From assembly GCA_964511535.1 (NCBI GenBank), contig CAZEFW010000015.1, positions 3,754 to 67,753 of the forward strand: DNA of 64,000 bases, read 5' to 3'. The notes beneath the pieces are model-generated. The model ran no database searches, was not told the origin of the DNA, and saw nothing but the letters and a program-made list of their open reading frames with translations. This DNA comes from an uncultured Myxococcales bacterium. GTDB lineage: Bacteria; Myxococcota_A; Polyangia; GCA-2747355; CAZCFB01. The translations under genes and the position numbers were made by a program. How positions within the stretch are numbered: the first letter of the stretch is position 1; the number at the start of each line of letters is the position of its first letter. This document shows positions 1-39,392 of this stretch, in pieces.

Positions 1-500
1 GGGGACAGTGACCAGACCAGGGTGATGAACAGCGGGATCAGCAGCAGGGCCATCATGGTGTCGTTCTGGGCCAGCTCGAACTTCGGCTCCCAGAACAGCG
101 CCAGGGCCAGGGCGCCGATCCAGCGCTCCCGCCGGGGCAGCGCGGCGCCCGTGGGCCAGTAGAACCAGATCCCGATGCAGAGGAACTCCAGCAGCAAGTA
201 CGCCAGGTGAGTGCCCACCACCGGGTTGTCCGCCAGGCGGGCGGGCAACGAGAGCCAGGTGTAGAGCGGGCCGCCCAGGGAGTAGCCGGTGCGGCCCAGC
301 TCCTCGCCCAGCACCCACCAGCCGACCTGGTCGAAGTGCTGAAACTGCAGGTCCAGCAGGTGCAGGTGGGGCATGATCGAGGCGGTGTAGAAGATGTGCA
401 GGTGGCGCAGCGCCAGCGCGCCGGTCACCAGCAGGAACAGCAAGTGCGCCGCAAGCGGCGGCCGCCCCTCCTCGGCCGAGGGGTGGCTCAGCCCGACCAC
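1..500 (-). CDS. Membrane protein, partial (runs off window start); possible GTG start at 500..498 ten nt upstream of the TGA stop of the preceding gene
   Basis: Minus-strand frame translated manually from the sequence; it is an open frame of hydrophobic helices with no stops that reaches position 1 (ending ...ALFWEPKFELAQNDTMMALLLIPLFITLVWSLS). It is not in the ORF track because it is truncated by the window edge. Confidence 0.45.
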   Translation of the reverse strand, partial: MVGLSHPSAEEGRPPLAAHLLFLLVTGALALRHLHIFYTASIMPHLHLLDLQFQHFDQVGWWVLGEELGRTGYSLGGPLYTWLSLPARLADNPVVGTHLAYLLLEFLCIGIWFYWPTGAALPRRERWIGALALALFWEPKFELAQNDTMMALLLIPLFITLVWSLS

Positions 501-1054
501 TCGCCCTGCTCGTAGAACACCACGCCCGGGATCTGCCGCCGCTCCACCTCGGCGCGGACCACCTCGTCCACGACGATGGCCGAGCAGCTCTCGGCCAGGC
601 GGAACAGGCGCAGCCCGCGGGCGCGGTCCTCGTCAATCACCAGGCTGTCGAAGCCGGTGGCCAGCGGCCCGCCCGGCATCCCGGGCATCAGGGCCGAGGC
701 CGCCAGGTCCGCGGCCGCCACCAGCCCCAGCACGTTGAAGGCGACGTAGTCGGCGTGGCGCTCCCCGGCCTCAGGGTCGATGAGCAACGCCGGGAACAGC
801 TCCAGGTTGGTGACGCCCACCGCCTCGAGCGCCTCGAGCAGGTCGGCCCGCATCACCGGGAAGGCCTCGGCGTCGTACAGCGCGCCGAGGTTGCCCGGCT
901 CGTCCGGATCCATATCCAGGGTGTACTCCAGGGGCGTGGGCACCTCGATGGCCAGCTTGCGCCCCCGGTACCAGGGGCCGCCGGGCAGCTCCGGCCCCTC
1001 CTCGATGTCCACGCCAGGATAGGGGCCCTCTCCAACCATCACGAAATGGGCCAT
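488..1054 (-). CDS. Hypothetical cytoplasmic protein (188 aa); weak resemblance to DUF1629/Imm-type immunity proteins
   Basis: Complete ORF, acidic, no signal peptide, GC3-rich codon usage; last gene of a coupled operon. Confidence 0.5.
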   Translation of the reverse strand: MAHFVMVGEGPYPGVDIEEGPELPGGPWYRGRKLAIEVPTPLEYTLDMDPDEPGNLGALYDAEAFPVMRADLLEALEAVGVTNLELFPALLIDPEAGERHADYVAFNVLGLVAAADLAASALMPGMPGGPLATGFDSLVIDEDRARGLRLFRLAESCSAIVVDEVVRAEVERRQIPGVVFYEQGEWSG

Positions 1055-1111: not shown

Positions 1112-1903
1112 TCAGAACATGCAGGGGATCTGCAGGTTGAGCAGCACCTTGTCGCCGGCCTTCTTGACGGCGTAGGTGGGCGAGCGGACGTCCACGTTGC
1201 GCTCCTGATTGCTGGCGTTGCGCAGGGTGATACGGAACCAGCTGGCCCGGCCCGCCGGGATGTCCTTGAGCGTCAGGGTGTAGCTGAAGAGCGTCCGGTC
1301 CAGGGTGACCAGGGAGCGCGGGTAGATGGCCAGGGCCTCGGCGTCCACCACGGAGATGGCGTACGGCTGCCAGGCGCCGGTGTTGCCCGACTTGCAGCGC
1401 ACGGTGCCCTCCATGGTGCCGGTCTCGTGGGACACCATGTCCAGGGTCAGGTCGGTCTGCTTGCCCGCCACCAGGTCCACGGTCTGCACCTTCTGCTGCC
1501 GGTAGGTGCGCAGGCCGGCGGCGGTCACCAGCCACGCCACGGCGCCGACGCTGTATGAAGGCCCGCTCGGCACGGTGAGGCTCAGCACCACCTCGCCCGA
1601 GGCGCCCTCCCCCGCGCCGACGCCCTTTTTGGGGTCGGGCCAGGTGCCGGCCACGGTCTTCTTGCCCGAGGCGCCCACGGTGACGCGCACCAGCTTGGGG
1701 AACTGGTTGTCCTTGGCCGACTGGCCCAGGCGGAACAGCCCCTGGCTGTCCCAGGGCGAGTAGGAGCCGCCCCCGGTGAGGGCCGCGGGGGGCGTGTCCA
1801 GGACAACGGACAGGGCGACATACTCCTGGTCCATGGGATCGACCAGGCAGCCGCCGGCGAGCAGCGCCCACAGCAGGGCCAGGGTCCGCAGGGTGAGGGT
1901 CAC
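1112..1903 (-). CDS. Lipoprotein, hypothetical (263 aa)
   Basis: N-terminal signal peptide with lipobox LLAGGC; start overlaps the upstream stop (ATGA-type coupling). Confidence 0.6.
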   Translation of the reverse strand: MTLTLRTLALLWALLAGGCLVDPMDQEYVALSVVLDTPPAALTGGGSYSPWDSQGLFRLGQSAKDNQFPKLVRVTVGASGKKTVAGTWPDPKKGVGAGEGASGEVVLSLTVPSGPSYSVGAVAWLVTAAGLRTYRQQKVQTVDLVAGKQTDLTLDMVSHETGTMEGTVRCKSGNTGAWQPYAISVVDAEALAIYPRSLVTLDRTLFSYTLTLKDIPAGRASWFRITLRNASNQERNVDVRSPTYAVKKAGDKVLLNLQIPCMF

Positions 1904-2700
1904 TTGAACGCCCCCTTGGGTACGCCGCGGACGGTGATGCGTACCGGCGCGGTGAAGGTCTCCGGCGTGGAGGTGCCGCCGCTCTTGCCGTCGCCCACGC
2001 CCTCGCCCGCGCCGCCGCCCTCGGTGCAGCCGCAGGCGGCGGTCTCGCGCTGGGCCTGGCGCTCACGCTGGGCCGTGCCCTCGGCGCGCTGGATGTCCTC
2101 AAGGTCGAGCTCTCCGGCGGGGGGCGCCCAGGCGGGCGGGGGCTGATACCGGGCGGCGTCGGCGAGCAGCGCCGCCGGCGGGGGGCCCTGCACCGGGGCG
2201 GTCTTGCCGTCGGACAGCAGCGCGACGCCCTGCCCGGCGCGGACCTGGCGCCGCGCGCCGCCAGCCCGCGAGACGTTGACCATCCCGGACGTGACGTACA
2301 GCTTGCCCGGGGCCAGCAGCATCACCGCGCCCGCCCGGGGGGCGACCTTCCAGCCGCTCCAGCTGACCACCGCCGGGCCGCCCGCCAGGCGCATGGCCCC
2401 CGGTCCGGAGAAGGACAGGCCGCCGAGGAACGGATCCTCCGGCGTGAGCCTGGCCGGGCCGACCACCCCCACGGCCACGGCTCCCATCACGAGCTGAGCC
2501 ACCGCGCCCCGGGCCAGGACGAGGGTCTTCTTTTCGGCCACGACGCCGCCGGCGCCCTTGAGCGGCGCGCCGTCCAGGGTCGCCTCGCCCACCAGGGAGA
2601 GCAGGCTCAGCCCCGGCCCCGGCGCGCCGGGCTCGGGCGCGGCGCTCGCGCTGGAGGCCGCCAGCAGCAGCAGCAAGGTGAAGGCTCCGGTGCGCATCAT
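1900..2700 (-). CDS. Secreted FecR-like domain protein (start MMRTGAF..., about 267 aa)
   Basis: Signal peptide; the ATG overlaps the TGA of the upstream gene (AATGATG). The track ORF 1900..2874 is an upstream extension in the same frame. Confidence 0.55.
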   Translation of the reverse strand: MMRTGAFTLLLLLAASSASAAPEPGAPGPGLSLLSLVGEATLDGAPLKGAGGVVAEKKTLVLARGAVAQLVMGAVAVGVVGPARLTPEDPFLGGLSFSGPGAMRLAGGPAVVSWSGWKVAPRAGAVMLLAPGKLYVTSGMVNVSRAGGARRQVRAGQGVALLSDGKTAPVQGPPPAALLADAARYQPPPAWAPPAGELDLEDIQRAEGTAQRERQAQRETAACGCTEGGGAGEGVGDGKSGGTSTPETFTAPVRITVRGVPKGAFK

Positions 2701-4243
2701 TGGTAGCTCCACGAGACGTTGACCGACCCGAGGTGGCGCCGGATGTCGAAGCTGGCCACGGTGGAGGGGCGCCAGTCGCGTTGATAGGAGGCCCACACGC
2801 GAAAGCCGAGGGGCAGCGTCCGTCCCAGCTCCACCGCGAGCTGGATCTGGTGGTCCTCGCGCAGCTCCTTCCACGGGCCTCCCTCCGAGTGGGGGAAACG
2901 CTGGTGCTCGTAGGCGCCGCGCAGGCCGAGCACCAGGTCCAGGGGCAGCAGCAGCGACCCGCCCACCCCCTGGCCGTAGGCGAGGGCCGTGTAGTAATCC
3001 CGGTCGGCCATGCGGTAGCGGCCGTAGAGCCAGAACAGCAGCCGCAGGCGATCCGAGAGCACCGACAGCCCGTGCTCCAGCGACAGCTCCAGGCCGAGGT
3101 TGCTGCGGGGGAAGTGGGCGAAGGTCTCCCGGGCCACGCTGTAGGTCACGCGGGTGGCCCCGCCGTCAGCGGCCCGGCGCTCCAGGGTCAGGTGCCCTGC
3201 GTGGCGCTCGAGGAAGATGTGGTGGTCGTCGGCCACCGGTGGCGTGCCGTCCTCGAACAGCTCGTTGAACCCGTCGAGGAACACCAGGTCGAAGCTGTAG
3301 CTGGCCCCGAGGGTCCAGAGGTCCGGGCCGGAGGTGAGCACCCGCGAATAGCCCGCCACGGTGGACAGGGCGGTGGCGGCCACGTCAGACGCCGTGGGCG
3401 AGCCGCCGCCGGTGTCGGCCGGAAAGTAGAAGGTGCGCGCCACGCCGACCCTGCCCTCCACCCGGTTGAACCGATCGATCCAGGGGCGCAGGGTGAGGCT
3501 GCCCGCCAGGGAGAGGCCGAAGACCGGGTCCCCCTGGGCGTCATGCTCGTACAGCGGGTTTTCGTCCACCAGTCCGCCGGCGGCCAGGGAGCCGGAGAGG
3601 AACCCGGAGGGCAGGCCCCCTGCGTCGTGGGTCGCGCGCATCAGGCGGCGGGCCAGCTCACCCCGCTCGCCCAGCAGCAGGGGCGACAGCACGGCGCGGC
3701 TGCGGTCCAGCTCCCGCGCCCGGAACAGCGCAAGGGCCAGCTGCAGATCCGACTCCTGGCGTGGGCCCCCCTTCAGCTTGCGGGCCGCCCGCAGGGCCGC
3801 GGCCGCCTCGGCGGGCTCGTCCATGGCGAGGTAGGCGATGCCGAGGTAGTGCGCGGCGGCCCAGGAGCGCGGGGCGAGCTCGTGCGCCCGGCTCAGGGCG
3901 CGCACCGCCCAGACGGCGTTCCCCTCGGCCAGGTAGATCAGCCCGAGGTCCAGCTGCAACCGCGCGTCCTGCGGGGCCAGGCGGGCGGCGCCGCGCAGCA
4001 CCCGCCGCCCCTCCTCGAGCTGGCCCAGCCGCGCCAGGGCCAGGCCCAGGTGGTGCGCCGCGGCCAGGTGCTCCGGGTTCCCGCGCAGCGCGGCGCGCAG
4101 CAGGGGCACGGCCTTGCCCAGCTCGCCCTGCTGGTAGCGCAGGATCCCGCGCGCGGCTGACAGCTCCGGGGGCACGTCCGCGGCCAGCGCCGGGGCCGCC
4201 GCGAGGAACAACAGCAGGCCTGAGAGCAGGCTACTGCGCATTG
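2697..4243 (-). CDS. TPR-repeat N-terminal domain plus C-terminal outer-membrane beta-barrel-like protein (about 515 aa from MRSSLLSG...)
   Basis: Signal peptide; TPR-like repeats (AAHHLGLALARLG, AAHYLGIAYLAMDEP); the C-terminus alternates hydrophobic residues and ends ...SVNVSWSYQ (aromatic OMP-like terminus); GGGAG RBS before the ATG at 4243. Confidence 0.6.
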
Positions 4244-4911
4244 AGCTCCCGTACCTTCTTGGCCGCCGCGGGCGCGTCCTTGTCCGAAAACTCGGACAGC
4301 TTGGAGGCCAGGCGGCCCTGCTTGTCGACGAAGAAGAAGTCGTAGTAGTTGGCACCGTAGAGGTACCAGACCCCCTTGGTGTCAGGCGTCACGGGGAAGC
4401 TCACCTTGTCGAAGCCGGGCGCGGCGTACTCCCAGGTGACGCCGCCGGCGGTCACCGCCAGCAGCTCAAAGTCGGTGATCCCCTCGGCCTGGAGGGGCTT
4501 GACCAGCTTGTTCTCGAAGGCAACAACCTGCTGCCCACAGTAGCCTCACCCGAGTAACCCGAAGTAGAGCATCACCACCTTCCCCTTGAGGGCGTTGAGG
4601 CAGACCTGCTTGTTGTAGTGGGCGCTCCTGGGGTTGACCGCCTTGAGGCAGAAGTTGGGGGCGGGGACCCGATCGGAGATGGCGAAGACGCAGCGGTTGC
4701 TCTTGCACGACTTGCCCACGGGCACGCCCTTGACGTAGCAGTCGGCGTCCTTCTCGCACTGCAGGTAGCAGCTGCCGGTGGCCAGCTCGCAGATCTGGCC
4801 GCCCGGGCAGTCGCCGTCCGCGGCGCAGCGACCGTAGGTGGAGTCCACCAGGCAGCCGCCCGCCAGCAGCAGGCAGGGGATCAGCAGCAGCGGGAGGTGG
4901 CGGCCGGGCAT
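4231..4911 (-). CDS. Candidate selenoprotein: Cys-rich lipoprotein with a TlpA/ResA-like thioredoxin-fold domain; in-frame TGA at 4548..4546 sits at the first position of CxxC (KGKVVMLYFGLLG-U-GYCGQQ)
   Basis: Track ORFs 4546..5559(-) and 4231..4455(-) are in the same frame, separated only by one TGA. Translation continues across it without stops (...UGYCGQQVVAFENKLVKPLQAEGITDFELLAVTAGGVTWEY...FFFVDKQGRL...). GGGAGG RBS lies 7 nt before the ATG at 4911. Signal peptide with lipobox LLLAGGC. A 6-bp stem with loop AGGUU lies 10 nt 3' of the UGA on the mRNA (+ strand 4535..4519). Confidence 0.6.
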
Positions 4912-6041
4912 CACTTGCCTCCCGTGGTTGTGTGGAGCATCACGCCGCCCTCGCCCACGGCCCACCCCTCGGAGGCAGAGCTGAAGCAGACCGACTCGAG
5001 CCGCTTGGTGGTGCCGGACGGCTGCACCTTCCAGGAGCCGCCGCCGTCGGTGGTGTGCAGGATGGTCCCCTTGTCGCCCACGGCCCAGCCGAGCTTGCTG
5101 CTGTACATGTAGACGTCCCACAGGTGGTTCTTGGTGGGAGACGTGATCGCCTTCCAGACCTTGCCCTTGCCGTCGGTGCTGCGCAGGATGCCGCCGAACT
5201 CGCCCACCGTGACGCCCAGGGAGGGGCCCACGAAGTCGAGGCCGCGCAGGGCGTACTTGAAGGCCGTCTTGACCGACGCCCAGGTGACGCCGCCATCGCT
5301 GGTGTAGTACACCTTGCCGCCGGTCTTGCCCACCATCCAGCCGAGCTTGTTGAACGAGAAGATGTCGTAGAACTCCTCGCTCTTGTAGGTGGGCGTGGCG
5401 CAGACCCAGCTGTAGGAGACCGAGCCGTCGTAATACTTGGACCCGCCGCCCTGCTTGTTCACCGCCACCCCGGCGCCGAGGCCGCGGTCGTAGTCGTGCA
5501 GGTGCAGGGCGTAGAAGGTGTCGAAGATGTAGGCGCTGCACTGGGGAGCGACCCCCCACTTGGTGCCCAGGTCCATGGTCTGCCAGATGTTGTAGTCCTT
5601 GCCCGCGACCACGCCGTAGGTCGCGCCCTTGGCGTTCTCACCGAACGCCACGGTGAACAGCTCCTTCTTGGTGCTGGCGGACTGGTTGACGAAGGTCTTC
5701 TTGCCCTTGGCCCGGTACAGGATGGTGCCCTTCTTGCCCACGGCGAAGACATGGCCCTTGAAGCAGGCCACGGCGTGCAGGTCCACCGGGGCCGACAGCT
5801 CCGCCTTCCACTTGGGCGGCCCCATGGTGTCGGGGGGCGGCGCCTTGTCGGGAGGCGGCTGGGTGTCCGGCGGCGGGGCGGTGTCCGGGACGGGGGCGCT
5901 GTCCGGCTTCAGGTCCGGCGTGGAGCCCAGGTCGGGCCAGACCGCCCCCGAGTCGGCGGAGGCCGCCCGGTCCGAGCAGGCGGAGGCCAGCCCTACGGAC
6001 AGGGCGATGATGGCGAGGGTTATATAGGGTACGCGCTGCAT
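4911..6041 (-). CDS. Lipoprotein with Ycf48-like/BNR (sialidase-type) beta-propeller repeats
   Basis: Signal peptide plus lipobox (LASAC); repeated motifs GWAVG...GTILHTTDGGGSW / YYTSDGGVTW; stop overlaps the start of the downstream gene (ATGA). Confidence 0.65.
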   Translation of the reverse strand: MQRVPYITLAIIALSVGLASACSDRAASADSGAVWPDLGSTPDLKPDSAPVPDTAPPPDTQPPPDKAPPPDTMGPPKWKAELSAPVDLHAVACFKGHVFAVGKKGTILYRAKGKKTFVNQSASTKKELFTVAFGENAKGATYGVVAGKDYNIWQTMDLGTKWGVAPQCSAYIFDTFYALHLHDYDRGLGAGVAVNKQGGGSKYYDGSVSYSWVCATPTYKSEEFYDIFSFNKLGWMVGKTGGKVYYTSDGGVTWASVKTAFKYALRGLDFVGPSLGVTVGEFGGILRSTDGKGKVWKAITSPTKNHLWDVYMYSSKLGWAVGDKGTILHTTDGGGSWKVQPSGTTKRLESVCFSSASEGWAVGEGGVMLHTTTGGK

Positions 6042-12846: not shown

Positions 12847-13965
12847 ATGCAATTGAATCCGTTACTTGCCCGGCTATTACTCCCGGGCGTCCTGGCCGTT
12901 GCCCTCACGGGCTGCAGCGATGGTACGGGCAGCAGCGACCCGGCCACCACGGAGTGGAAGCGGCAGACCATGATTGACGCCTGCGTGCGCATGCACTCCT
13001 GCGGGGTCTTCGCGGTCACCGACGTCTACGGCTGCATCACGGACTTCGAGGAGACCAAGGCCACGCCCACGGGGACTGCCGCCATGTACAAGAAGCGGCA
13101 CTTCTGCGTCAACAAGGCCGGCGGCGATTGTGACGCCATTCGCGCCTGCTTCGGCGGCCAGAAGTGGGACCTGGAGAAGCAAGGCCCTGAGTGCGACAGC
13201 ACCTTCAAGCCGAGCTGCGAGGGGACCAAGATGCGCATCTGCGACTCGCTCAACAAGCGCATCTTCGCCCTGGACTGCGCGGAGGCCGGGCTCTCCTGCG
13301 CCACCGACGTCAACGGCCAGCCCTTCTGCAGCGCAGGCCCGTGCAAGACGGCCAAGAAGAACGACAACACCTGCAGCGAGGACAAGACGCAGCACCTGTT
13401 CTGCAACGGCACCGGCCTGCAGATCGAGCAGTGTGACTGGCTCAGCCTCGTGTGCGGAAAGGACCGGGACGGCAAGATCGATTGCGTCGGGACCGGAAAG
13501 GAATGCAAGGGGTGAGCTAGCAAAGACGGCCTTTCGTGTAAAGGCATCGGCACCCCGACTTACTGCGAGACTGGCGACACCTGCGAAGACAAGGCGGCCT
13601 GGAAGTGCAAGCGGGCCAGCAACAGCAAGACCTACCTCTCGGCCGCGAGCGCCAAGGGCCCCGCCTGCGGACTGCACCCCGGCTACCGCACCGGCTGCAT
13701 GTGCGGCAACGAGGCGAACATCGACTGCCGCTCCATGCCTGGCAAACGCATCTGCGACCCGAAGGCCGACAAGTTCGACTACTGCGCCCCCGCGGGCAAG
13801 GAGTGCGGCGTCGCATCGGGCGTCAAGGACGCCTGCGACGGCGACACGCTCGTCTTCTGCGTGGACGGCTTCAAGACCCGGGTAGACTGCACCAAGTTCG
13901 GCTTCAAGGGCTGCAAGAGCCTCACCGTGGGCGGCGGCTCGGTCCTCGGCGCGCTCTGTTACTGA
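12847..13965 (+). CDS. Cys-rich secreted lipoprotein; single in-frame TGA at 13513..13515 (candidate selenocysteine, or a nonsense-interrupted pseudogene)
   Basis: Track ORFs 12847..13515 and 13699..13965 share a frame. The 183 nt between them are open and encode Cys-rich sequence of the same character (ASKDGLSCKGIGTPTYCETGDTCEDKAAWKCK...). Signal peptide with lipobox LTGC. Stem-loop GCCUUUCGUGUAAAGGC at 13529..13545, 13 nt after the TGA. Confidence 0.5.
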
Positions 13966-21821: not shown

Positions 21822-22313
21822 CTACTCCGAGGCCACCGGGGCGATGCAGGTGAGCTCGCCATGCACCGGGATCGCCTCTTCGTTGTCCATGATCTCGATG
21901 ATCAGGTCGTCGGCGTTGAACGCCTCTTCCAGCTCGAGGTTGTCGATGGCCCGGCGCTCGCCCTCGCGCCGCTCGCCGCACGTGTCCCGCGGATCGGGCA
22001 GCTCCCGCCGGCGGTCGTTCCAGCGCCGGTCCCGGCTGAGCCGCTGGCGCAGGCCCTCGATGCTGTGTGGCATGGGGGCGATGCGCATGGCCCGGGCCCC
22101 ACAGTTGTGGCACATGGGCAGCCAGGCGTTGCGAAACTCCACCAGCTTCAGGTTCTCGTGTCGGCGGTCATTGCAGATGACGCAGGCCGCGCCATGCCCC
22201 ACCGGGCGCGCCTCGGCCCAGCGGATGTAGCATATCCAACAACGGCCCCGGCGCAGGTTCTGTACGCGCGCGCCGCACACTTCGCAGGTCTGTGTGTCCT
22301 GGGACTCGATCAT
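21822..22313 (-). CDS. Zinc-ribbon protein, hypothetical (two CxxC...CxxC pairs); track ORF extends to 22328
   Basis: CEVCG...CWIC and CVICN...CHNCG motifs; acidic C-terminus. Confidence 0.45.
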   Translation of the reverse strand: MIESQDTQTCEVCGARVQNLRRGRCWICYIRWAEARPVGHGAACVICNDRRHENLKLVEFRNAWLPMCHNCGARAMRIAPMPHSIEGLRQRLSRDRRWNDRRRELPDPRDTCGERREGERRAIDNLELEEAFNADDLIIEIMDNEEAIPVHGELTCIAPVASE

Positions 22314-22440
22314 GGGTTCACCTCGCATAGTTCCTTACATTGTCGTACACGTCGCCAACGGGCCGGGCAAATTTTTCGCCCGCGATAATTGCCAGGCCCG
22401 ACCGGGTCAGCCTAACCTGTGGAGCAGAGGAGTTTTTTTG

Positions 22441-23157
22441 ATGCGCCGTCCGCGTTGGACCCTTGCCGTTGCCGCCCCCCTGCTGCTGCTGGTGTGCGGC
22501 GCCTTTGACTGCCCCATCGCCCTGGACGAGCCCACGCCCAAGAACAAGGACGGCGGGACCAGCGCCACGCCCGCCATCATCATCGGCGGCAACACCCCCG
22601 TCTATTGGACCCTGACCACCACGCCGTACATCACGGTCACTGCCCACGGCCCCAAGGCGGTGCAGACCAAGGTGCTGCAGGCCACGACGTCCGGCCAGGT
22701 GGGCGACAGCTTCATCAGCCTGCTCTCCTTTTGTGGCCTGGCCAACGCCGTCTGCCCCCACAAGGTGTTGCCCAACCCCACCGCCGTGGCCCAGTACTTG
22801 AGCCAGCCGTCGACGCCGGTGTTCGGGTTCAACCGAACCGGGCCGCTGGCGCTGCTCAAGAAGGCCATGGGCCTGCTCGGGACGCTGTCGGGCAACCAGC
22901 TGATCATCTCCCTGGCCACGGACCACCTGAGCGCCGCCAAGGCCGACCCCTGCGCCCTGGGCCAGGCGTCGCGCATCAGCGCCACGGTGAGCGGCAAGGG
23001 GGGCAAGGTCATCGCGGCCCCGGCCAAGGGGGAGCTGATCCAGGGCACCATCAAGCTGGCCTACAAGTCCGACTGCTTCACACTCTCCGGTCAGAGCGTG
23101 GTGCCCACCGGCACCCGGGTGGAGCTGAGCGTGCCGTTCACGGCGAGCCGCAGGTAA
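22441..23157 (+). CDS. Secreted hypothetical protein (238 aa, 6 Cys)
   Basis: AGGAG RBS; signal peptide MRRPRWTLAVAAPLLLLVCGA; lies 17 nt upstream of the radical SAM gene. Confidence 0.55.
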   Translation: MRRPRWTLAVAAPLLLLVCGAFDCPIALDEPTPKNKDGGTSATPAIIIGGNTPVYWTLTTTPYITVTAHGPKAVQTKVLQATTSGQVGDSFISLLSFCGLANAVCPHKVLPNPTAVAQYLSQPSTPVFGFNRTGPLALLKKAMGLLGTLSGNQLIISLATDHLSAAKADPCALGQASRISATVSGKGGKVIAAPAKGELIQGTIKLAYKSDCFTLSGQSVVPTGTRVELSVPFTASRR

Positions 23158-23173: not shown

Positions 23174-24145
23174 GTGGCAGTGCCCGAGGTACCCACCTGC
23201 CTCATCGCGGTGCCCACCTTCCGCTGCCCCCTGCGCTGCATGCACTGCGACCTGCCGGGGCTGCGCGGCGACGAGGTGCCGCCTGCCCTGTGGCGGCAGC
23301 GGCTGCAGGAGCTCGGCCAGGAGGTCGAGCGGCCGTTTCTGGTGGGGATCTCCGGCGGCGAGCCGCTGGTGTACGAGGGGATCGACGAGCTCGTCGGGGC
23401 CTGCGCGGAGGCGGACATGCTCACCGCCCTGGCCACCAGCACCCTCCCCCTGACCGAGGACCGCGCCCGCAGCCTGCTGGCCGCCGGCGTCAACGCCCTG
23501 GTGCTGCCCCTGGACGGCATCGGCCTGCACCACGACGAGCTGCGACGCAAGCCGGGCATGTTCGAGCGCACCGTGAAGGCCGCGCAGATGGTCAAGGGCT
23601 TCAGCCCCATGCTGCATGTCAGCGCCGTGTCCACGGTGACCCAACGCAACGCGGACCAGCTGGTCTCCATCGCCCACTGGATCTACGGGCAGCCCGAGAC
23701 CTTCAACCAGATCTGCTTCCACACCCTGAGCGGCAACCTCGGCGGGCCCCTGGAGCATGACCCGCAGTGGCACCGCAAGAGCCCGCTCTGGCCCGGCGGA
23801 CATGAGCACCTGCAGGACCAGATCGAGCAGCTGGCCGCGCTGGCCGAGGAGGGGCTCCCGTTCGTCAACAGCGCCGACGAGCTGCGCGCCATGGCGCGCT
23901 TCTACGCCCGGCCCGACGAGCCCCTGCGCAGCTGCGATCAGTACAACCGCGGCATGCTCGCGCTGCCCGACGGCCACGTGAAGATCTGCCCGCTTCACGA
24001 CCCGGTGGGCAACTTCCGCGAGCAGTCGCTGCTGGAGATCTGGCGTTCACCCGCCGCCCGGGCGCTGCGGCAGGAGATGCGCGGCTGCCGGCGCAACTGC
24101 CACTTCATCACCAACTACGCGTACCAGCGGCACGAGGTGCGCTGA
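23174..24145 (+). CDS. Radical SAM enzyme with C-terminal SPASM-like domain
   Basis: CxxxCxxC (CPLRCMHC) near the N-terminus; C-terminal Cys cluster (CDQYNRG...KICPLH...CRRNCHF). Confidence 0.8.
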   Translation: MAVPEVPTCLIAVPTFRCPLRCMHCDLPGLRGDEVPPALWRQRLQELGQEVERPFLVGISGGEPLVYEGIDELVGACAEADMLTALATSTLPLTEDRARSLLAAGVNALVLPLDGIGLHHDELRRKPGMFERTVKAAQMVKGFSPMLHVSAVSTVTQRNADQLVSIAHWIYGQPETFNQICFHTLSGNLGGPLEHDPQWHRKSPLWPGGHEHLQDQIEQLAALAEEGLPFVNSADELRAMARFYARPDEPLRSCDQYNRGMLALPDGHVKICPLHDPVGNFREQSLLEIWRSPAARALRQEMRGCRRNCHFITNYAYQRHEVR

Positions 24146-36657: not shown

Positions 36658-39225
36658 TTACCGCTTGTAGTTCTGCCGTCCCTTGTAGCCGCCGCCCCGC
36701 TGGCCCTTGGCGTTCCAGCCGGACTTGTTCTTCACCACCTTCAGGTGAGGCCGCCCCTGGACCACCTGCTTCTTGTGAAACTTGGTGGTCTTCTTGGCCT
36801 TCGCCTTGCGCACCCGCGGCGCCTTGAGCTTGTGGGTGTGGAGCGCCGCGGTGCCCGACTTCTGGATCGCCCGCTGCAGAGCGCGCTGGTGGCGCGGCGT
36901 GCGGGGTTTGGTGGTCTTCTTGGTGGTGGCGGTCTTCTTCTTGCCCCTGGAGGCCTGCCGCGAGCGCTCGTTGTTGAACAGCGCCTTGCTCACCGCGCGC
37001 AGGGAGTTGGACTTGAGCGCCCCGCGGCTACCGCCGCGCCGCCGCGCCTCCACGGAGAGGGCCACCTGCACGTCGCTGCTGTCGAGCACCGACTGGATCC
37101 CCTTGCCGTAGTTGCGCCCGCCGTTGTTGAGCCACTTCTTGTTGCGGCCGGTGGCGTCGAAGAACGCGGCCCGGATCTTCTTGATCGGCGCCTCGCCCAG
37201 CGGGATGTCATAGGTCGCCTCCGCCCCGTTTACCGAGGAGGGGCTGTAGTCCTTCCAGCTGTCGCCGCCCAGGTTCAGGTGGAGCTTGTAGTTCTTGCCG
37301 GTGCGCAGGCCCAGCGGGTCGCCCTTGACCGTGACCCGCACCATGTCCTTGGTGCCGTTGGAGAGCTGCTGGATGGTGACGCCGTCCTCCTTGTGCTTGC
37401 TCAGCACCAGGTAGCCGTCCCGGGTCTTGGGCGCCCGACCGCCCAGCACCATGTCCGCGGTGTGCACCGCCGAGCCCGGGCCGAGCACGTTGTTCTTGCG
37501 CATGAAGGCGTTGAGGTCGGCGCGCACCTGGTTCAGGGGCTCGCCGCCCTTGACCCGGTCGGTGACGCTGATGGAGTAGTCGCGCAGGTCCTGGCGCACC
37601 AGAGAGACGGCGTGGCGGTTGCGGTGCCCTGCCCGCTCCTTCATCAGCTTGATGCGCCCGCGCGCCTCGGCGGCGCCCAGCTTGCCCACCACCGGCTTGA
37701 TCACCTTGTCGTAGGCCTCCACCAGCATCTTGGCGCGGTTGGTGTCCGTGGTGTCCAGCTTGGCCCCCGGGCGCATGGCCCTGGCCACCGCGTCCACCCG
37801 CTGCGCCATGGTCATGGTGCCCAGCTTCGTCTCCGGCAGCTTGTTCAGCGCGGCGAACATGTCGTAGCGCGCCGGGTTCTCCACCTGGGTGCTCTTGCCC
37901 ATCTTGTGCTTCTTGCCCTGCTCCACGATGTTGCCCATGGTGGTGAAGGCCGTCATGAAGGTCTTGGCCGCGCCGCGGTCCTTGTTCATGGCCTTCTTGG
38001 CCTCGGCCTTGGACATGCCCGCGTGCAGCAGGGTGTTCTGGGTGAAGCGGCGCTCCAGCATGCCGTCGGCGATCTTGTCCGGGCGCAGCTTCTTGAGCTC
38101 CTTCTGCTCCGCCGGTGTGGCGGACTTCATCATCAGGTTGTACAGCTCGGTCTTGACGTAGCGGTCCATGACGAACTTGGGCTCGCCGCCGTAGCCGATC
38201 CACTTGGAGAAGAAGGAGTAGTTCTTGTGGGTCCGGTCCACGGTGGAGCCGGTGCCGTGGTCCATGTTCTCCATCAGGCCGATGTTGTCGTAGGTGGTGG
38301 AGCCGTGCACCGTGCGCAGGAAGAACATGTCGGCCATCTCGTTGGCCTTGCGCTGGGTCAGCGTCTTGTACAGGCCGGGGATGGACATCTTGCGGCTGCG
38401 GCCCATCTCCATGCTCACCTGGGTGTTGGCGAAGTCCACCAGCTGGCGCAGGGCCTTCTTGTCGTTGCGCACCAGGTTCCAGTGGGCCAGGCGGGTGAAG
38501 TTGCCGCCACGGATCAGCAGGCCGGCGCGCTCGCGCCCGCCGTTGGGGTGGACGATGTCGCTGCCGCTGTCGATGACCGCCAGCCACTTGTTGGTCTTTA
38601 TGCCGTTGCGGGAGAGGTAGTCGGAGAACAGCGCGTCCTCGGTGGCCTGGCGCAGCGACTCCTTGCCGTGGCGGTGGCCGAAGCCTTTCCAGTTGGGGTG
38701 CAGCCCGGTGCCAACGCCCTTGACCTGGATGTCGTACACGCCGGTGATGTTGCCCTTGCGATCCTTGATCACCACCTCGCCCGTGAGCGCGGCGCGGCCG
38801 TCGCCCTTGACGCCCTTTTCGCCGCCGCGGGCGTCCGCGTAGCGCGTGGCCAGGCCCATGTGGGTGTGCTTACCGGCCTTGATCTCGGCCTCGGTGGCCG
38901 GGCGGAAGGCGAAGTTGTTGACCACGCCCTTCTCGAGGTTGTGGTCATGGCGGCTGCCGGGGGAGGTCCGGAAGCCCAGCCTCTTGAGCTCGCGATGGTT
39001 GGCCATCACCACCCGCGCGCCCTCCTCGCGTACCAGCGGGACCTCCTTGACCATGGTCTTGCGGACCTGGTTATCGAAGGCCCTGCCAAAGCTGCTGCCG
39101 CCAGAGAAGCGGGCCAGCTGACCGGGCTCCTGGGCGTGGGCGGCTGAGAGGCTCAGGGCGAGCACGCCGGCCATCAGCGCGGTGGCCAGCTGCTTCAGGA
39201 TATGATTTCGGCGGTTCAATCTCAT
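36658..39225 (-). CDS. Secreted SelO/YdiU (UPF0061)-like pseudokinase-fold protein with a long Lys-rich C-terminal extension (about 855 aa)
   Basis: Signal peptide (start MRLNRR, with GGAG RBS). Blocks match SelO/YdiU conserved motifs: GDGRAALTGE, DIQVKGVGTG, ERAGLLIRGGNFTRLAHWN, HGSTTYDNIGLMENMDHGTGSTVD (cf. E. coli YdiU GDGRGILLGE / DWHLKGAGLTP / GAMLMRVAPSHLRFGHFE / [25 protein letters not shown]). Lower GC than neighbours. Confidence 0.6.
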   Translation of the reverse strand: MRLNRRNHILKQLATALMAGVLALSLSAAHAQEPGQLARFSGGSSFGRAFDNQVRKTMVKEVPLVREEGARVVMANHRELKRLGFRTSPGSRHDHNLEKGVVNNFAFRPATEAEIKAGKHTHMGLATRYADARGGEKGVKGDGRAALTGEVVIKDRKGNITGVYDIQVKGVGTGLHPNWKGFGHRHGKESLRQATEDALFSDYLSRNGIKTNKWLAVIDSGSDIVHPNGGRERAGLLIRGGNFTRLAHWNLVRNDKKALRQLVDFANTQVSMEMGRSRKMSIPGLYKTLTQRKANEMADMFFLRTVHGSTTYDNIGLMENMDHGTGSTVDRTHKNYSFFSKWIGYGGEPKFVMDRYVKTELYNLMMKSATPAEQKELKKLRPDKIADGMLERRFTQNTLLHAGMSKAEAKKAMNKDRGAAKTFMTAFTTMGNIVEQGKKHKMGKSTQVENPARYDMFAALNKLPETKLGTMTMAQRVDAVARAMRPGAKLDTTDTNRAKMLVEAYDKVIKPVVGKLGAAEARGRIKLMKERAGHRNRHAVSLVRQDLRDYSISVTDRVKGGEPLNQVRADLNAFMRKNNVLGPGSAVHTADMVLGGRAPKTRDGYLVLSKHKEDGVTIQQLSNGTKDMVRVTVKGDPLGLRTGKNYKLHLNLGGDSWKDYSPSSVNGAEATYDIPLGEAPIKKIRAAFFDATGRNKKWLNNGGRNYGKGIQSVLDSSDVQVALSVEARRRGGSRGALKSNSLRAVSKALFNNERSRQASRGKKKTATTKKTTKPRTPRHQRALQRAIQKSGTAALHTHKLKAPRVRKAKAKKTTKFHKKQVVQGRPHLKVVKNKSGWNAKGQRGGGYKGRQNYKR

Positions 39226-39392
39226 GTCACGCAATCTCCAGCACCTCTTTATAGCAACAGAGGTGCCAGATCGTAAAATCAAAAATTACGCTTACTTGAA
39301 AGATCGGGCTGGGGTGAGATGACCCTGGCGGTGGTACCCCGGGTGGCCACCTGGGGGCCGGATCCCTCAAATGCCCCATGCTCTCGGGGTGT

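What the first reader, a model, noticed from the sequence alone, without database searches (positions are those of the whole stretch)
4231..4911. Thioredoxin-fold (TlpA-like) lipoprotein with TGA in place of the first Cys of CxxC: candidate selenoprotein with a SECIS-like hairpin
Two track ORFs (4546..5559 and 4231..4455, minus strand) are in the same frame, separated only by a TGA at 4548..4546. Read through, they form one lipoprotein: signal peptide with lipobox, a Cys-rich module, then KGKVVMLYFGLLG-U-GYCGQQ...FFFVDKQGRL. This aligns with the canonical TlpA/ResA pattern KGKvvLlNFWAsW-C-gPC...fLIDkdGkI, so the TGA falls exactly at the redox-active first cysteine (a UxxC motif). Starting 10 nt 3' of the UGA, the mRNA can form a 6-bp stem with apical loop AGGUU (+ strand 4535..4519), compatible with a bacterial SECIS. 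Thioredoxin-like UxxC selenoproteins are an established class, especially in deltaproteobacteria-like anaerobes and microaerophiles.
Basis: partly seen in the sequence, partly recalled or inferred. Interest (0 to 1): 0.8.

Follow-up and report, generated by a model that had tools for sequence, protein, structure and literature searches.

The report
Selenocysteine TlpA-like envelope lipoprotein gene
Two short "hypothetical" ORFs separated by a TGA are really one exported thiol-disulfide oxidoreductase whose active-site cysteine is replaced by selenocysteine; the case is well supported, but this is an already familiar kind of bacterial selenoprotein.

Summary
On the minus strand, ATG 4911 to TAG 4231 is a single reading frame interrupted once, by TGA at 4548..4546. 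Read through, it encodes a 226-residue lipoprotein with a signal peptide, an 8-Cys module and a thioredoxin fold.

The TGA sits at the first Cys of the CxxC motif. In 11 of 11 related genes from independent metagenomes (42-74% identical) the same column is TGA. Two further homologs have TGC there (CTPC, CAPC).

A 7-bp hairpin, GGGCAGC-AGGNN-GYUGCCC, starts 9 nt after the UGA. It is present and fully paired in all 11 TGA forms and absent from both Cys forms. It is held in place by rare synonymous codons and meets the published bacterial SECIS criteria.

Profile and fold comparisons place the domain with ResA/TlpA/DsbE. The closest curated model is NCBIfam's "TUGYCR motif (seleno)protein", but the scores (31-55 bits) are below its 100-bit cutoff.

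No selA, selB, selC or selD lies in the 64 kb window. However, a second conserved TGA-plus-hairpin gene (12847..13965) suggests that the organism decodes Sec.

Verdict: a real selenoprotein that gene callers split in two. It is a new member of a known kind, and of moderate interest.

The parts
4231..4911 (-). Complete selenoprotein gene (226 codons including UGA-122). ATG 4911..4909, TAG 4233..4231.
   Evidence: The identical sequence occurs in three independent assemblies. Gene callers split it into 121-aa and 74-aa products.
4546..4548 (-). In-frame UGA (codon 122), read as selenocysteine. It occupies the position of the first Cys of the CxxC redox motif (U-G-Y-C).
   Evidence: TGA at the same alignment column in 11 of 11 homologous genes, and TGC in 2 Cys-form homologs. 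It aligns with the first Cys of CGVC in PDB 2ls5.
4518..4536 (-). SECIS-like hairpin within the coding sequence. 5' stem 4536..4530 (GGGCAGC), loop 4529..4525 (AGGUU), 3' stem 4524..4518 (GUUGCCU). It starts 9 nt after the UGA, with 16 nt between the UGA and the loop.
   Evidence: Conserved and paired in all 11 Sec forms, with a free energy of -9.7 to -13.8 kcal/mol. Synonymous positions are fixed to rare codons.
4537..4539 (-). Codon of Cys125, the resolving Cys of the U-x-x-C motif.
   Evidence: Invariant in the family alignment.
4852..4911 (-). Signal peptide ending in the lipobox-like LLAGG-C. Cys20 (4854..4852) is the predicted lipidation site.
   Evidence: Read from the sequence. The G/A-C-[LV]-V motif after a hydrophobic stretch is kept in all full-length homologs. 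No signal-peptide predictor was available.
4690..4827 (-). N-terminal module with 8 Cys (residues 29-74), of the myxobacterial Cys-rich repeat type.
   Evidence: Weak TIGR04201 Myxo_Cys_RPT hit. The only part that found relatives among reference genomes, all of them Myxococcota.
4300..4665 (-). Thioredoxin-fold (TlpA/ResA-like) domain, residues 83-204, which spans the UGA.
   Evidence: Pfam AhpC-TSA 27.5 bits against a cutoff of 26. PDB profile hits to TlpA/ResA-like proteins, best E = 1.8e-7. AF2 model of the Cys homolog, with ResA and DsbE as top Foldseek hits.
4911..6041 (-). Upstream operon partner: a Ycf48/BNR beta-propeller lipoprotein. Its TGA stop overlaps the selenoprotein ATG (TGATG).
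   Evidence: The adjacency is conserved in L010, L012, L013 and L016.
2697..4241 (-). Downstream operon partner: a 514-aa exported protein with N-terminal TPR repeats and no Cys. Its ATG (4241) overlaps the last 11 nt of the selenoprotein gene.
   Evidence: The adjacency is conserved in L012 and L022-L024.

Best explanation
This is one gene for a selenocysteine-containing, exported thiol-disulfide oxidoreductase of the TlpA/ResA type.

Proposed recoding mechanism:
1. When the ribosome reaches UGA-122, the hairpin 9 nt downstream (GGGCAGC-AGGUU-GUUGCCU) is bound by SelB-GTP-Sec-tRNA(Sec).
2. This delivers Sec instead of allowing termination.
3. The ribosome then melts the hairpin and translates it as G-Q-Q-V-V-A-F.

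Proposed fate and function of the protein:
1. The 226-residue product is exported and probably lipidated at Cys20. It carries a disulfide-rich N-terminal module and a thioredoxin fold.
2. Its active site, U122-G-Y-C125, cycles between a selenol/thiol state and a selenylsulfide state. It thereby reduces or isomerises disulfides, or other oxidised sulfur species, in the cell envelope.
3. It most likely acts together with the co-translated operon partners: the Ycf48-like propeller lipoprotein, the TPR protein and two further exported proteins.

Shown here:
- a single frame;
- the conserved TGA and the Cys/Sec pairing;
- the conserved SECIS-like hairpin;
- the TlpA/ResA-type fold;
- conserved synteny with overlapping start and stop codons.

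Inferred:
- actual Sec insertion;
- export and lipidation;
- reductase rather than peroxidase chemistry;
- the identity of the substrates.
For: Single frame and coding signal:
- There is one frame with one TGA.
- Codon-position composition is coding-like on both sides of the TGA.

Homolog search:
- An exhaustive HMMER search with the part after the TGA found 24 real relatives. Of these, 22 are 52-112-aa fragments that begin just after the motif, and 2 are full-length proteins with Cys at the TGA column.
- DNA was recovered for 10 homologs (L010-L012, L014, L015, L017-L021). All 10 have TGA, never TAA or TAG, at the same column, and protein similarity continues across it.
- Motifs in the TGA forms are U-G-Y-C, U-G-H-C and U-P-H-C, each followed by G-Q-Q.

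Hairpin:
- It is 100% paired in 77 of 77 cells. Pair 30/38 occurs as G-C x5, G-U x3 and A-U x3, and never as A-C. RNAalifold predicts the same helix.
- Stem codons are fixed at rare synonymous choices. GTT or GCT occurs in 11 of 11, against a background of 6% of Val codons and 12% of Ala codons. GGG occurs in 11 of 11 (background 34%) and GCC in 11 of 11 (background 41%).
- The two Cys forms lack both the hairpin and the GQQ[VA][VA]A peptide.
- All four bSECIS model criteria quoted in PMC13188914 are met: loop 3-9 nt, stem 4-16 bp, a G in the first two loop positions, 16-37 nt spacing, and MFE <= -7.5 kcal/mol.

Fold and family:
- Pfam AhpC-TSA scores above its cutoff.
- The family profile hits PDB TlpA/ResA/DsbE proteins, and U aligns with the first Cys of CGVC.
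- The AF2 model of Cys homolog P0006 has pLDDT 83.5, with CTPC at the N-cap of helix 121-140. Its top Foldseek matches are ResA, TlpA-like proteins and DsbE, with target TM-scores up to 0.81.
- The nearest curated family is itself a selenoprotein family, NF053656 TUGYCR.

Alternatives ruled out or weakened:
- TGA is the ordinary stop codon of 17 of 34 likely genes in the window, so it has not been reassigned.
- A second gene in the same window (12847..13965) shows an independent conserved TGA with a covarying hairpin at similar spacing. This argues that the organism has the Sec trait.
Against: - No selA, selB, selD or tRNA-Sec was found in the 64 kb window or in any fetched locus. The rest of the genome could not be reached.
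- Covariation in the hairpin is thin. Five of 7 pairs never vary, and 59 of 500 shuffles reach the observed score.
- The hairpin lies in conserved coding sequence, so part of its conservation is due to the protein.
- In the single window sequence the hairpin is not statistically unusual.
- The metagenome scan used the peptide pattern [GP][YH]CGQQ[VA][VA]A. It therefore selected for that peptide, though not for the codons.
- The 16-nt UGA-to-loop spacing is at the lower limit of the model.
- There is no experimental evidence for selenium incorporation or for function.
Confidence: 0.87

Rival explanations
1. The TGA is a real stop. The locus would then be a pseudogene, a sequencing or assembly error, or two separate small genes: a 121-aa Cys-rich lipoprotein and an independent 74-104-aa protein.
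For: Gene callers in every source split the locus this way. TGA is the commonest stop codon in the window. No Sec machinery was seen.
Against: - The split cuts a single thioredoxin fold between strand beta1 and helix alpha1. Neither half is a domain.
- The stop is always TGA and always at the same column in 11 genes that are only 42-74% identical. Purifying selection acts on both sides.
- Continuous Cys-form homologs exist.
- Three independent assemblies give the identical sequence.
Confidence: 0.03
2. The UGA is read through, but not as selenocysteine. Possibilities are near-cognate Trp or Cys insertion, or a SelB-independent read-through stimulated by the hairpin.
For: The Sec machinery is unverified for this genome. 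Downstream hairpins can stimulate read-through in general (own knowledge).
Against: - The column pairs with catalytic Cys in homologs, and Sec is the only recoded residue that preserves the chemistry.
- The hairpin has the loop (N-G-G/U-N-N) and the spacing typical of SelB-dependent bSECIS elements.
- The nearest curated family is annotated as a selenoprotein family.
- A second gene in the window has the same architecture.
Confidence: 0.05
3. It is a selenoprotein, but its chemistry is peroxide reduction (a Prx- or GPx-like thiol peroxidase at the envelope) rather than disulfide reduction or isomerisation.
For: - The best Pfam hit is AhpC/TSA.
- Peroxiredoxins appear among the profile and fold matches.
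- Sec is favoured in peroxidases because it resists over-oxidation (PMC13188914).
- The canonical cis-Pro position of TlpA-like proteins is not clearly kept: NYYD in the window against PYD or PHN in others (read by eye).
Against: - The Prx signature PxxxTxxC is absent. The motif is the U/C-x-x-C type of TlpA/ResA/DsbE.
- The top structural and profile matches are ResA, TlpA-like proteins and DsbE, ahead of Prx.
- The Cys forms have CxPC, like CcmG, TlpA and ResA (comparison from own knowledge).
Confidence: 0.2

Closest known systems
NCBIfam NF053656, 'TUGYCR motif thioredoxin fold (seleno)protein'
   Same: It has a thioredoxin fold with Sec at the first position of a U-G-Y-C motif. It is the best NCBIfam hit for the window protein and for all six other Sec forms tested (E = 7e-15 to 1e-7).
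   Different: Scores of 31-55 bits are far below the curated 100-bit cutoff. The flanks differ (G-U-G-Y-C-G-Q-Q here against T-U-G-Y-C-R). This family also has a lipoprotein signal and an 8-Cys N-terminal module. It is a sister family, not a member.
[quoted passage not shown]
   Same: The same kind of protein: an AhpC/TSA-TlpA superfamily fold, Sec replacing the N-terminal Cys of CxxC, Cys-form homologs, and a bSECIS immediately downstream.
   Different: Their representative sequences could not be fetched, so identity with any of them is untested. The database copies of this family are unnamed or 'hypothetical protein' fragments. The Myxococcota-type Cys-rich module and the conserved operon are not described in the review.
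ResA / TlpA / CcmG (DsbE), the extracytoplasmic Cys-based thiol-disulfide reductases
   Same: These are the best structural and profile matches (1st9, 4nmu, 3gl3, 2ls5). The active site is at the N-terminus of helix alpha1, and they are membrane-anchored or exported. The Cys forms of this family have a CxPC motif.
   Different: Sec replaces Cys here. There is no link to cytochrome c maturation or to Sco/CuA genes in the neighbourhood. The cis-Pro position is not clearly conserved. There is an extra Cys-rich module.
E. coli fdhF-type bacterial SECIS (consensus model of Zhang and Gladyshev, as summarised in PMC13188914)
   Same: A hairpin inside the coding sequence just 3' of the UGA, with a small apical loop carrying G-G/U at loop positions 2-3 and a 16-nt UGA-to-loop distance.
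   Different: The stem is short (7 bp) with no bulged U. The spacing is at the minimum of the allowed range. Binding by SelB is untested.

Membership tests
Bacterial selenoprotein gene (SelB/SECIS-dependent UGA recoding) | In-frame UGA conserved at the same position in orthologs, with protein similarity continuing across it | tested here: met
   TGA in 11 of 11 genes at one alignment column. Both flanks are conserved.
Bacterial selenoprotein gene (SelB/SECIS-dependent UGA recoding) | Homologs with Cys at the UGA position (Cys/Sec pair) | tested here: met
   P0006 (LLG-C-TPCG) and P0018 (LLG-C-APCG) have TGC codons there.
Bacterial selenoprotein gene (SelB/SECIS-dependent UGA recoding) | [quoted passage not shown] | tested here: met
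   7 bp stem, loop AGGUU, 16 nt spacing, -9.7 kcal/mol. Conserved in all 11 Sec forms and absent from the Cys forms. No Rfam model for bacterial SECIS matched or is available.
Bacterial selenoprotein gene (SelB/SECIS-dependent UGA recoding) | selA, selB, selC (tRNA-Sec) and selD present in the genome | not testable with these tools
   None is in the 64 kb window or in the fetched loci. A second conserved TGA-plus-hairpin gene in the window gives indirect support.
Bacterial selenoprotein gene (SelB/SECIS-dependent UGA recoding) | Selenium physically incorporated (75Se labelling or mass spectrometry) | not testable with these tools
   This needs an experiment.
TlpA/ResA/DsbE-like extracytoplasmic thioredoxin-fold oxidoreductases | Thioredoxin fold of the TlpA-like type | tested here: met
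   Pfam PF00578 27.5 bits against a cutoff of 26. Family profile against PDB: 2ls5 at 1.8e-7, then 4evm, 4hqs, 3hdc and ResA. AF2 model of the Cys homolog matches ResA, DsbE and TlpA-like proteins with target TM-scores of 0.7-0.8.
TlpA/ResA/DsbE-like extracytoplasmic thioredoxin-fold oxidoreductases | C-x-x-C active site at the N-terminus of helix alpha1 | tested here: met
   U122-G-Y-C125 aligns with C-G-V-C of 2ls5. In the model of P0006, CTPC 120-123 precedes helix 121-140.
TlpA/ResA/DsbE-like extracytoplasmic thioredoxin-fold oxidoreductases | Conserved cis-proline loop opposite the active site | tested here: inconclusive
   The aligned region is [PYSD]-Y-[DE] before FLVDKKGRL. A Pro is present in some members (PYD, PHN) but not in the window protein (NYYD). 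No structure-based residue alignment was made.
TlpA/ResA/DsbE-like extracytoplasmic thioredoxin-fold oxidoreductases | Export or membrane anchoring (signal peptide, lipobox or TM anchor) | tested here: met
   There is an N-terminal hydrophobic stretch followed by LLAGG-C. The equivalent Cys is conserved in all full-length homologs. This was read by eye, since no predictor was available.
NCBIfam NF053656 redoxin_TUGYCR | HMM score at or above the curated cutoff (100 bits) | tested here: not met
   55.1 bits for the window protein and 31.5-49.9 bits for six other Sec forms.
Peroxiredoxin (AhpC/TSA, Prx) | PxxxTxxC peroxidatic motif | tested here: not met
   The sequence before U122 is YFGLLG, with no P-x3-T. 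The motif definition is from PMC13188914.

The most novel reading that the evidence does not exclude
The gene may be the signature of an undescribed Myxococcota envelope system. This would be a conserved, translationally coupled operon of a Ycf48-like propeller lipoprotein, the Sec-TlpA-like lipoprotein, a Cys-free TPR protein with a possible outer-membrane barrel, and two further exported proteins. In it, selenium-based redox chemistry would serve an outer-membrane assembly or export machine. The host would also have an expanded extracytoplasmic selenoproteome. That would include a second Cys-rich lipoprotein selenoprotein family with no recognisable domain (12847..13965, motif CKG-U-A), which matches no Pfam or NCBIfam model and for which no Cys form was found.
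Probability: 0.25. Interest if true: 0.6.

Novelty: new member of a known kind. Interest (0 to 1): 0.4.

Why it matters
- It corrects a systematic misannotation. In every public source this gene appears as two unnamed fragments (121 aa and 74-97 aa), so the family is invisible to protein-level searches.
- It adds a lipoprotein subfamily, apparently restricted to Myxococcota, to the TlpA/Prx-like UxxC selenoproteins.
- Within this narrow family, Sec forms outnumber Cys forms (22 clusters against 2). That is the reverse of the usual pattern.
- The SECIS visibly dictates the peptide that follows the active site (GQQ[VA][VA]A occurs only in Sec forms). This is a clean example of an RNA structure constraining protein sequence.
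- Together with the second TGA gene in the window, it flags the organism as a user of extracytoplasmic selenoproteins.
- It does not change what is understood about Sec decoding or thioredoxin-fold chemistry.

Tried and rejected
- **Word-indexed protein search.** The search with the full read-through (U replaced by C) found nothing. The family exists in databases only as fragments.
- **Handing in the read-through.** The 104-aa part after the TGA was used instead.
- **Reference-genome scan.** It matched only the Cys-rich module in Myxococcota genomes. Local tblastn showed no thioredoxin part in those loci. Neither the source genome nor close relatives are among the species representatives.
- **Metagenome scan.** A 6-sequence alignment worked.
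- **RNA and tRNA searches.** Rfam at gathering threshold and at permissive E-value gave nothing relevant. ARAGORN found no tRNA in the window or in 19 loci.
- **Pfam survey.** About 40 likely genes in the window include no selA, selB or selD. There is only a SelO-domain protein, which is unrelated to Sec insertion.
- **Walking beyond the window.** The attempt failed because the chosen protein was not on record with that start codon.
- **Spurious hits.** P0001, P0025 and P0027-P0029 in the exhaustive search are long multi-stretch hits, not relatives. P0001 and P0025 were inspected and are repeat proteins.
- **Extending the helix.** A longer lower stem reaching towards the UGA is not consistently paired (read).
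- **Rejected explanations.**
  - Genetic-code reassignment of TGA is rejected because 17 of 34 likely genes end in TGA.
  - Sequencing error is rejected because three assemblies are identical.
  - Peroxiredoxin membership is rejected because there is no PxxxT motif.
Full report
**1. Observation**

On the minus strand, an ATG at 4911..4909 opens a frame that runs to TAG 4233..4231. It has exactly one internal stop, TGA at 4548..4546. The read-through is a 226-codon product:

MPGRHLPLLLIPCLLLAGGC / an 8-Cys stretch (C29...C74) / ...PAPNFCLKAVNPRSAHYNKQVCLNALKGKVVMLYFGLLG-U-GYCGQQVVAFENK...YYDFFFVDKQGRLASK...NAQ

Sequence upstream of ATG 4911 in ORF 4546..5559 is only the out-of-frame shadow of the neighbouring gene.

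The part after the TGA is compositionally coding, with GC3 0.91 and GC2 0.39 in a 68.6% GC window. A scan of all TGAs for coding-like composition on both sides returns this site plus one antisense artefact. Three independent assemblies from different samples carry the identical 681 nt, including the TGA, so it is not a sequencing error. TGA terminates 17 of 34 likely genes in the window, so the codon has not been reassigned.

**2. Protein family**

- Pfam places residues 83-201 in AhpC/TSA, at 27.5 bits against a cutoff of 26.
- The best NCBIfam hit is NF053656, "TUGYCR motif thioredoxin fold (seleno)protein", at 55 bits against a cutoff of 100.
- A profile built from six family members hits solved TlpA/ResA/DsbE-type proteins, with 2ls5 at E = 1.8e-7, followed by 4evm, 4hqs, 3hdc and ResA. 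In the 2ls5 alignment the TGA column sits on the first Cys of C-G-V-C and Cys125 on the second.
- An AlphaFold model of the Cys-form homolog P0006 has pLDDT 83.5. It shows strand 110-116 followed by CTPC (120-123) at the start of helix 121-140.
- Foldseek ranks ResA, TlpA-like proteins and DsbE first, with target TM-scores up to 0.81 and rmsd 2.6 A. Peroxiredoxins rank behind them.
- The Prx motif PxxxTxxC is absent.

**3. Homologs decide the question**

The word-indexed search found nothing with the read-through. The exhaustive HMMER search with the 104 residues after the TGA found 24 true relatives.

- Twenty-two are fragments of 52-112 aa that begin a few residues after the motif.
- Two are full-length: P0006 (229 aa) and P0018 (234 aa). 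They read ...FNLLG-C-TPCGEE... and ...FHLLG-C-APCGQE....
- P0001, P0025 and P0027-P0029 are long multi-stretch hits, not relatives. P0001 and P0025 were inspected and are repeat proteins.

DNA was fetched for five fragment loci (L010, L011, L012, L014, L015). A metagenome scan gave five more (L017-L021). In all ten the fragment is preceded, in frame, by TGA at the same alignment column. It is never TAA or TAG. An N-terminal half homologous to the window's follows on the other side. The motifs are:

- GLMA-U-GHCGQQ
- GLLG-U-GYCGQQ
- AWLT-U-PHCGQQ
- AQLF-U-GYCGQQ
- GLLA-U-GHCGQQ
- GWLT-U-PHCGQQ
- GQLG-U-GYCGQQ
- GWIT-U-PHCGQQ
- ALLA-U-GHCGQQ

The two Cys forms have TGC at this column. Counting the window gene, this gives 11 of 11 TGA plus a Cys/Sec pair. 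That is the standard comparative signature of a selenoprotein, as described in PMC13188914.

**4. The SECIS**

An alignment of the 11 Sec forms around the TGA shows an invariant register:

UGA - 9 nt - GGGCARC - AGGNN - GYUGCC(C/U)

- All 77 cells pair. Position 30/38 occurs as G-C (5), G-U (3) and A-U (3), and never as A-C.
- RNAalifold predicts exactly this helix and nothing else.
- The free energy of the hairpin alone is -9.7 kcal/mol in the window and reaches -13.8 kcal/mol in other members.
- The formal covariation signal is weak. Five of 7 pairs are invariant, and 59 of 500 shuffles reach the observed score.

The synonymous positions carry the argument:

| Stem codon | Observed | Background usage |
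|---|---|---|
| 3' stem, third-position U that pairs with the A of CAG (GTT or GCT) | 11 of 11 | GTT 6% of Val, GCT 12% of Ala |
| Gly (GGG) | 11 of 11 | 34% |
| Following Ala (GCC) | 11 of 11 | 41% |

At 42-74% protein identity, synonymous sites should be largely randomised. This fixation therefore points to selection on the RNA (inference).

The Cys forms have neither the hairpin nor the GQQ[VA][VA]A peptide. This is what is expected if the peptide is dictated by the SECIS.

The element meets the bSECIS model quoted in PMC13188914: loop 3-9 nt, stem 4-16 bp, G within the first two loop nucleotides with a G[G|U] core, 16-37 nt between the UGA and the loop (here 16), and MFE <= -7.5 kcal/mol.

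One caveat applies. In a single sequence such a hairpin is unremarkable. About 11% of all TGA triplets in this GC-rich window are followed by one, and the local fold has z = 0.42. Rfam has nothing to offer here.

**5. Context**

The gene sits in a tight minus-strand operon.

- The TGA stop of a Ycf48/BNR-type lipoprotein gene (6041..4911) overlaps the selenoprotein ATG (TGATG).
- The ATG of a 514-aa TPR protein gene (4241..2697, no Cys) overlaps the last 11 nt of the selenoprotein gene.
- Two further exported proteins follow, with 4-nt overlaps (2700..1900 and 1903..1112).
- The order 2-hydroxyacid dehydrogenase, Ycf48-like, selenoprotein, TPR, 277 aa, 256 aa recurs in L012. The Ycf48-like neighbour also precedes both Cys forms.

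The organism is a member of Myxococcota, by inference from three observations. The Cys-rich module finds only Myxococcota genomes. There is a weak hit to TIGR04201, the myxobacterial Cys-rich repeat. The window contains a PEGA-domain Ser/Thr kinase.

**6. Sec machinery**

No tRNA-Sec, selA, selB or selD lies in the window or in any fetched locus. The attempt to walk beyond the window failed.

Indirect support comes from a second gene at 12847..13965 on the plus strand. It encodes a Cys-rich lipoprotein with an in-frame TGA at 13513..13515 (...KECKG-U-ASKDGLSC...). The TGA, both flanks and the whole downstream frame are conserved in L025 (46% identity) and L028. A hairpin 12-13 nt after the UGA, GGCCUU(U/C)-NGUGU-(A/G)A(A/G)GGCC, shows a U-A to C-G compensatory exchange. 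All database homologs of that gene are fragments that end or start at the TGA, and no Cys form was found.

**7. Mechanism**

The committed mechanism is SelB/SECIS-dependent insertion of Sec at codon 122. This is followed by export, probable lipidation at Cys20, and action as an envelope thiol-disulfide oxidoreductase that cycles through a U122-C125 selenylsulfide.

- Recoding: confidence about 0.87.
- Reductase or isomerase rather than peroxidase chemistry: roughly 0.6 against 0.2, by inference from motif type and nearest structures.
- Substrates: unknown. The operon partners are the obvious candidates.

**8. Comparison with what is known**

UxxC selenoproteins of the AhpC/TSA-TlpA-redoxin type are established. 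[quoted passage not shown]

The nearest curated HMM, NF053656, is matched by all seven Sec forms tested, but only at 31-55 bits, below its 100-bit cutoff. This is therefore a related but distinct subfamily. No paper mentions the TUGYCR motif. The family's database entries are unnamed or "hypothetical protein" fragments.

Verdict: the finding and its interpretation are right. It is a new member of a known kind, of moderate interest.

Noticed in passing
window 12847..13965 (+), TGA at 13513..13515, hairpin about 13529..13545: A second candidate selenoprotein. It is a Cys-rich lipoprotein (LTGC lipobox) with no Pfam or NCBIfam match, interrupted by an in-frame TGA (KECKG-U-ASKDGLSC). The TGA, its flanks and the downstream frame are conserved in L025 (46% identity) and L028. 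A hairpin 12-13 nt after the UGA shows a U-A to C-G compensatory change. All database homologs are fragments that end or start at the TGA, and no Cys form was found. This may be an undescribed selenoprotein family and deserves its own follow-up.
   Followed up: partly
window 1112..6041 (-); also L012 and L022-L024: A conserved, translationally coupled operon of exported proteins surrounds the selenoprotein. Its members are a Ycf48/BNR propeller lipoprotein, the selenoprotein, a Cys-free 514-aa TPR protein, a 266-aa secreted protein and a 263-aa lipoprotein with the same LLAGGCLVD lipobox context. The TPR protein has weak PgaA/PrsT-like hits and its C-terminal approximately 350 residues match no family. 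The function of the operon is unknown.
   Followed up: partly
family level; L010 and L016: Among clusters at 50% identity, Sec-type fragments (22) far outnumber Cys forms (2), the reverse of the usual Cys-over-Sec ratio. A Sec form (L010) and a Cys form (L016) come from the same sample, SRR28093593.
   Followed up: no
window 4318..4350 (-), residues about 188-198 (NYYDFFFVDKQ): The position where TlpA/ResA-like proteins carry the cis-proline loop is not clearly conserved. Some members have P-Y-D or P-H-N, while the window protein has Y-Y-D. This might indicate an altered substrate groove. It was judged by eye from the alignments only.
   Followed up: no
window 36658..39282 (-): An 874-aa protein has a weak SelO (protein adenylyltransferase) domain hit (E = 6.6e-10). 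It is unrelated to Sec insertion and has no in-frame TGA. SelO-like proteins do, however, appear in the selenoprotein inventory of PMC13188914.
   Followed up: no
window 488..1054 (-), and the 633-aa ORF next to it in L022: An Imm11-family immunity protein lies directly downstream of the operon, next to a large protein with no family match. This may be a polymorphic toxin-immunity pair.
   Followed up: no
window 23174..24145 (+): A radical SAM/SPASM-domain protein is flanked by ORFs with no family match (22294..23157 and 21822..22328). This may be a peptide-maturation locus.
   Followed up: no
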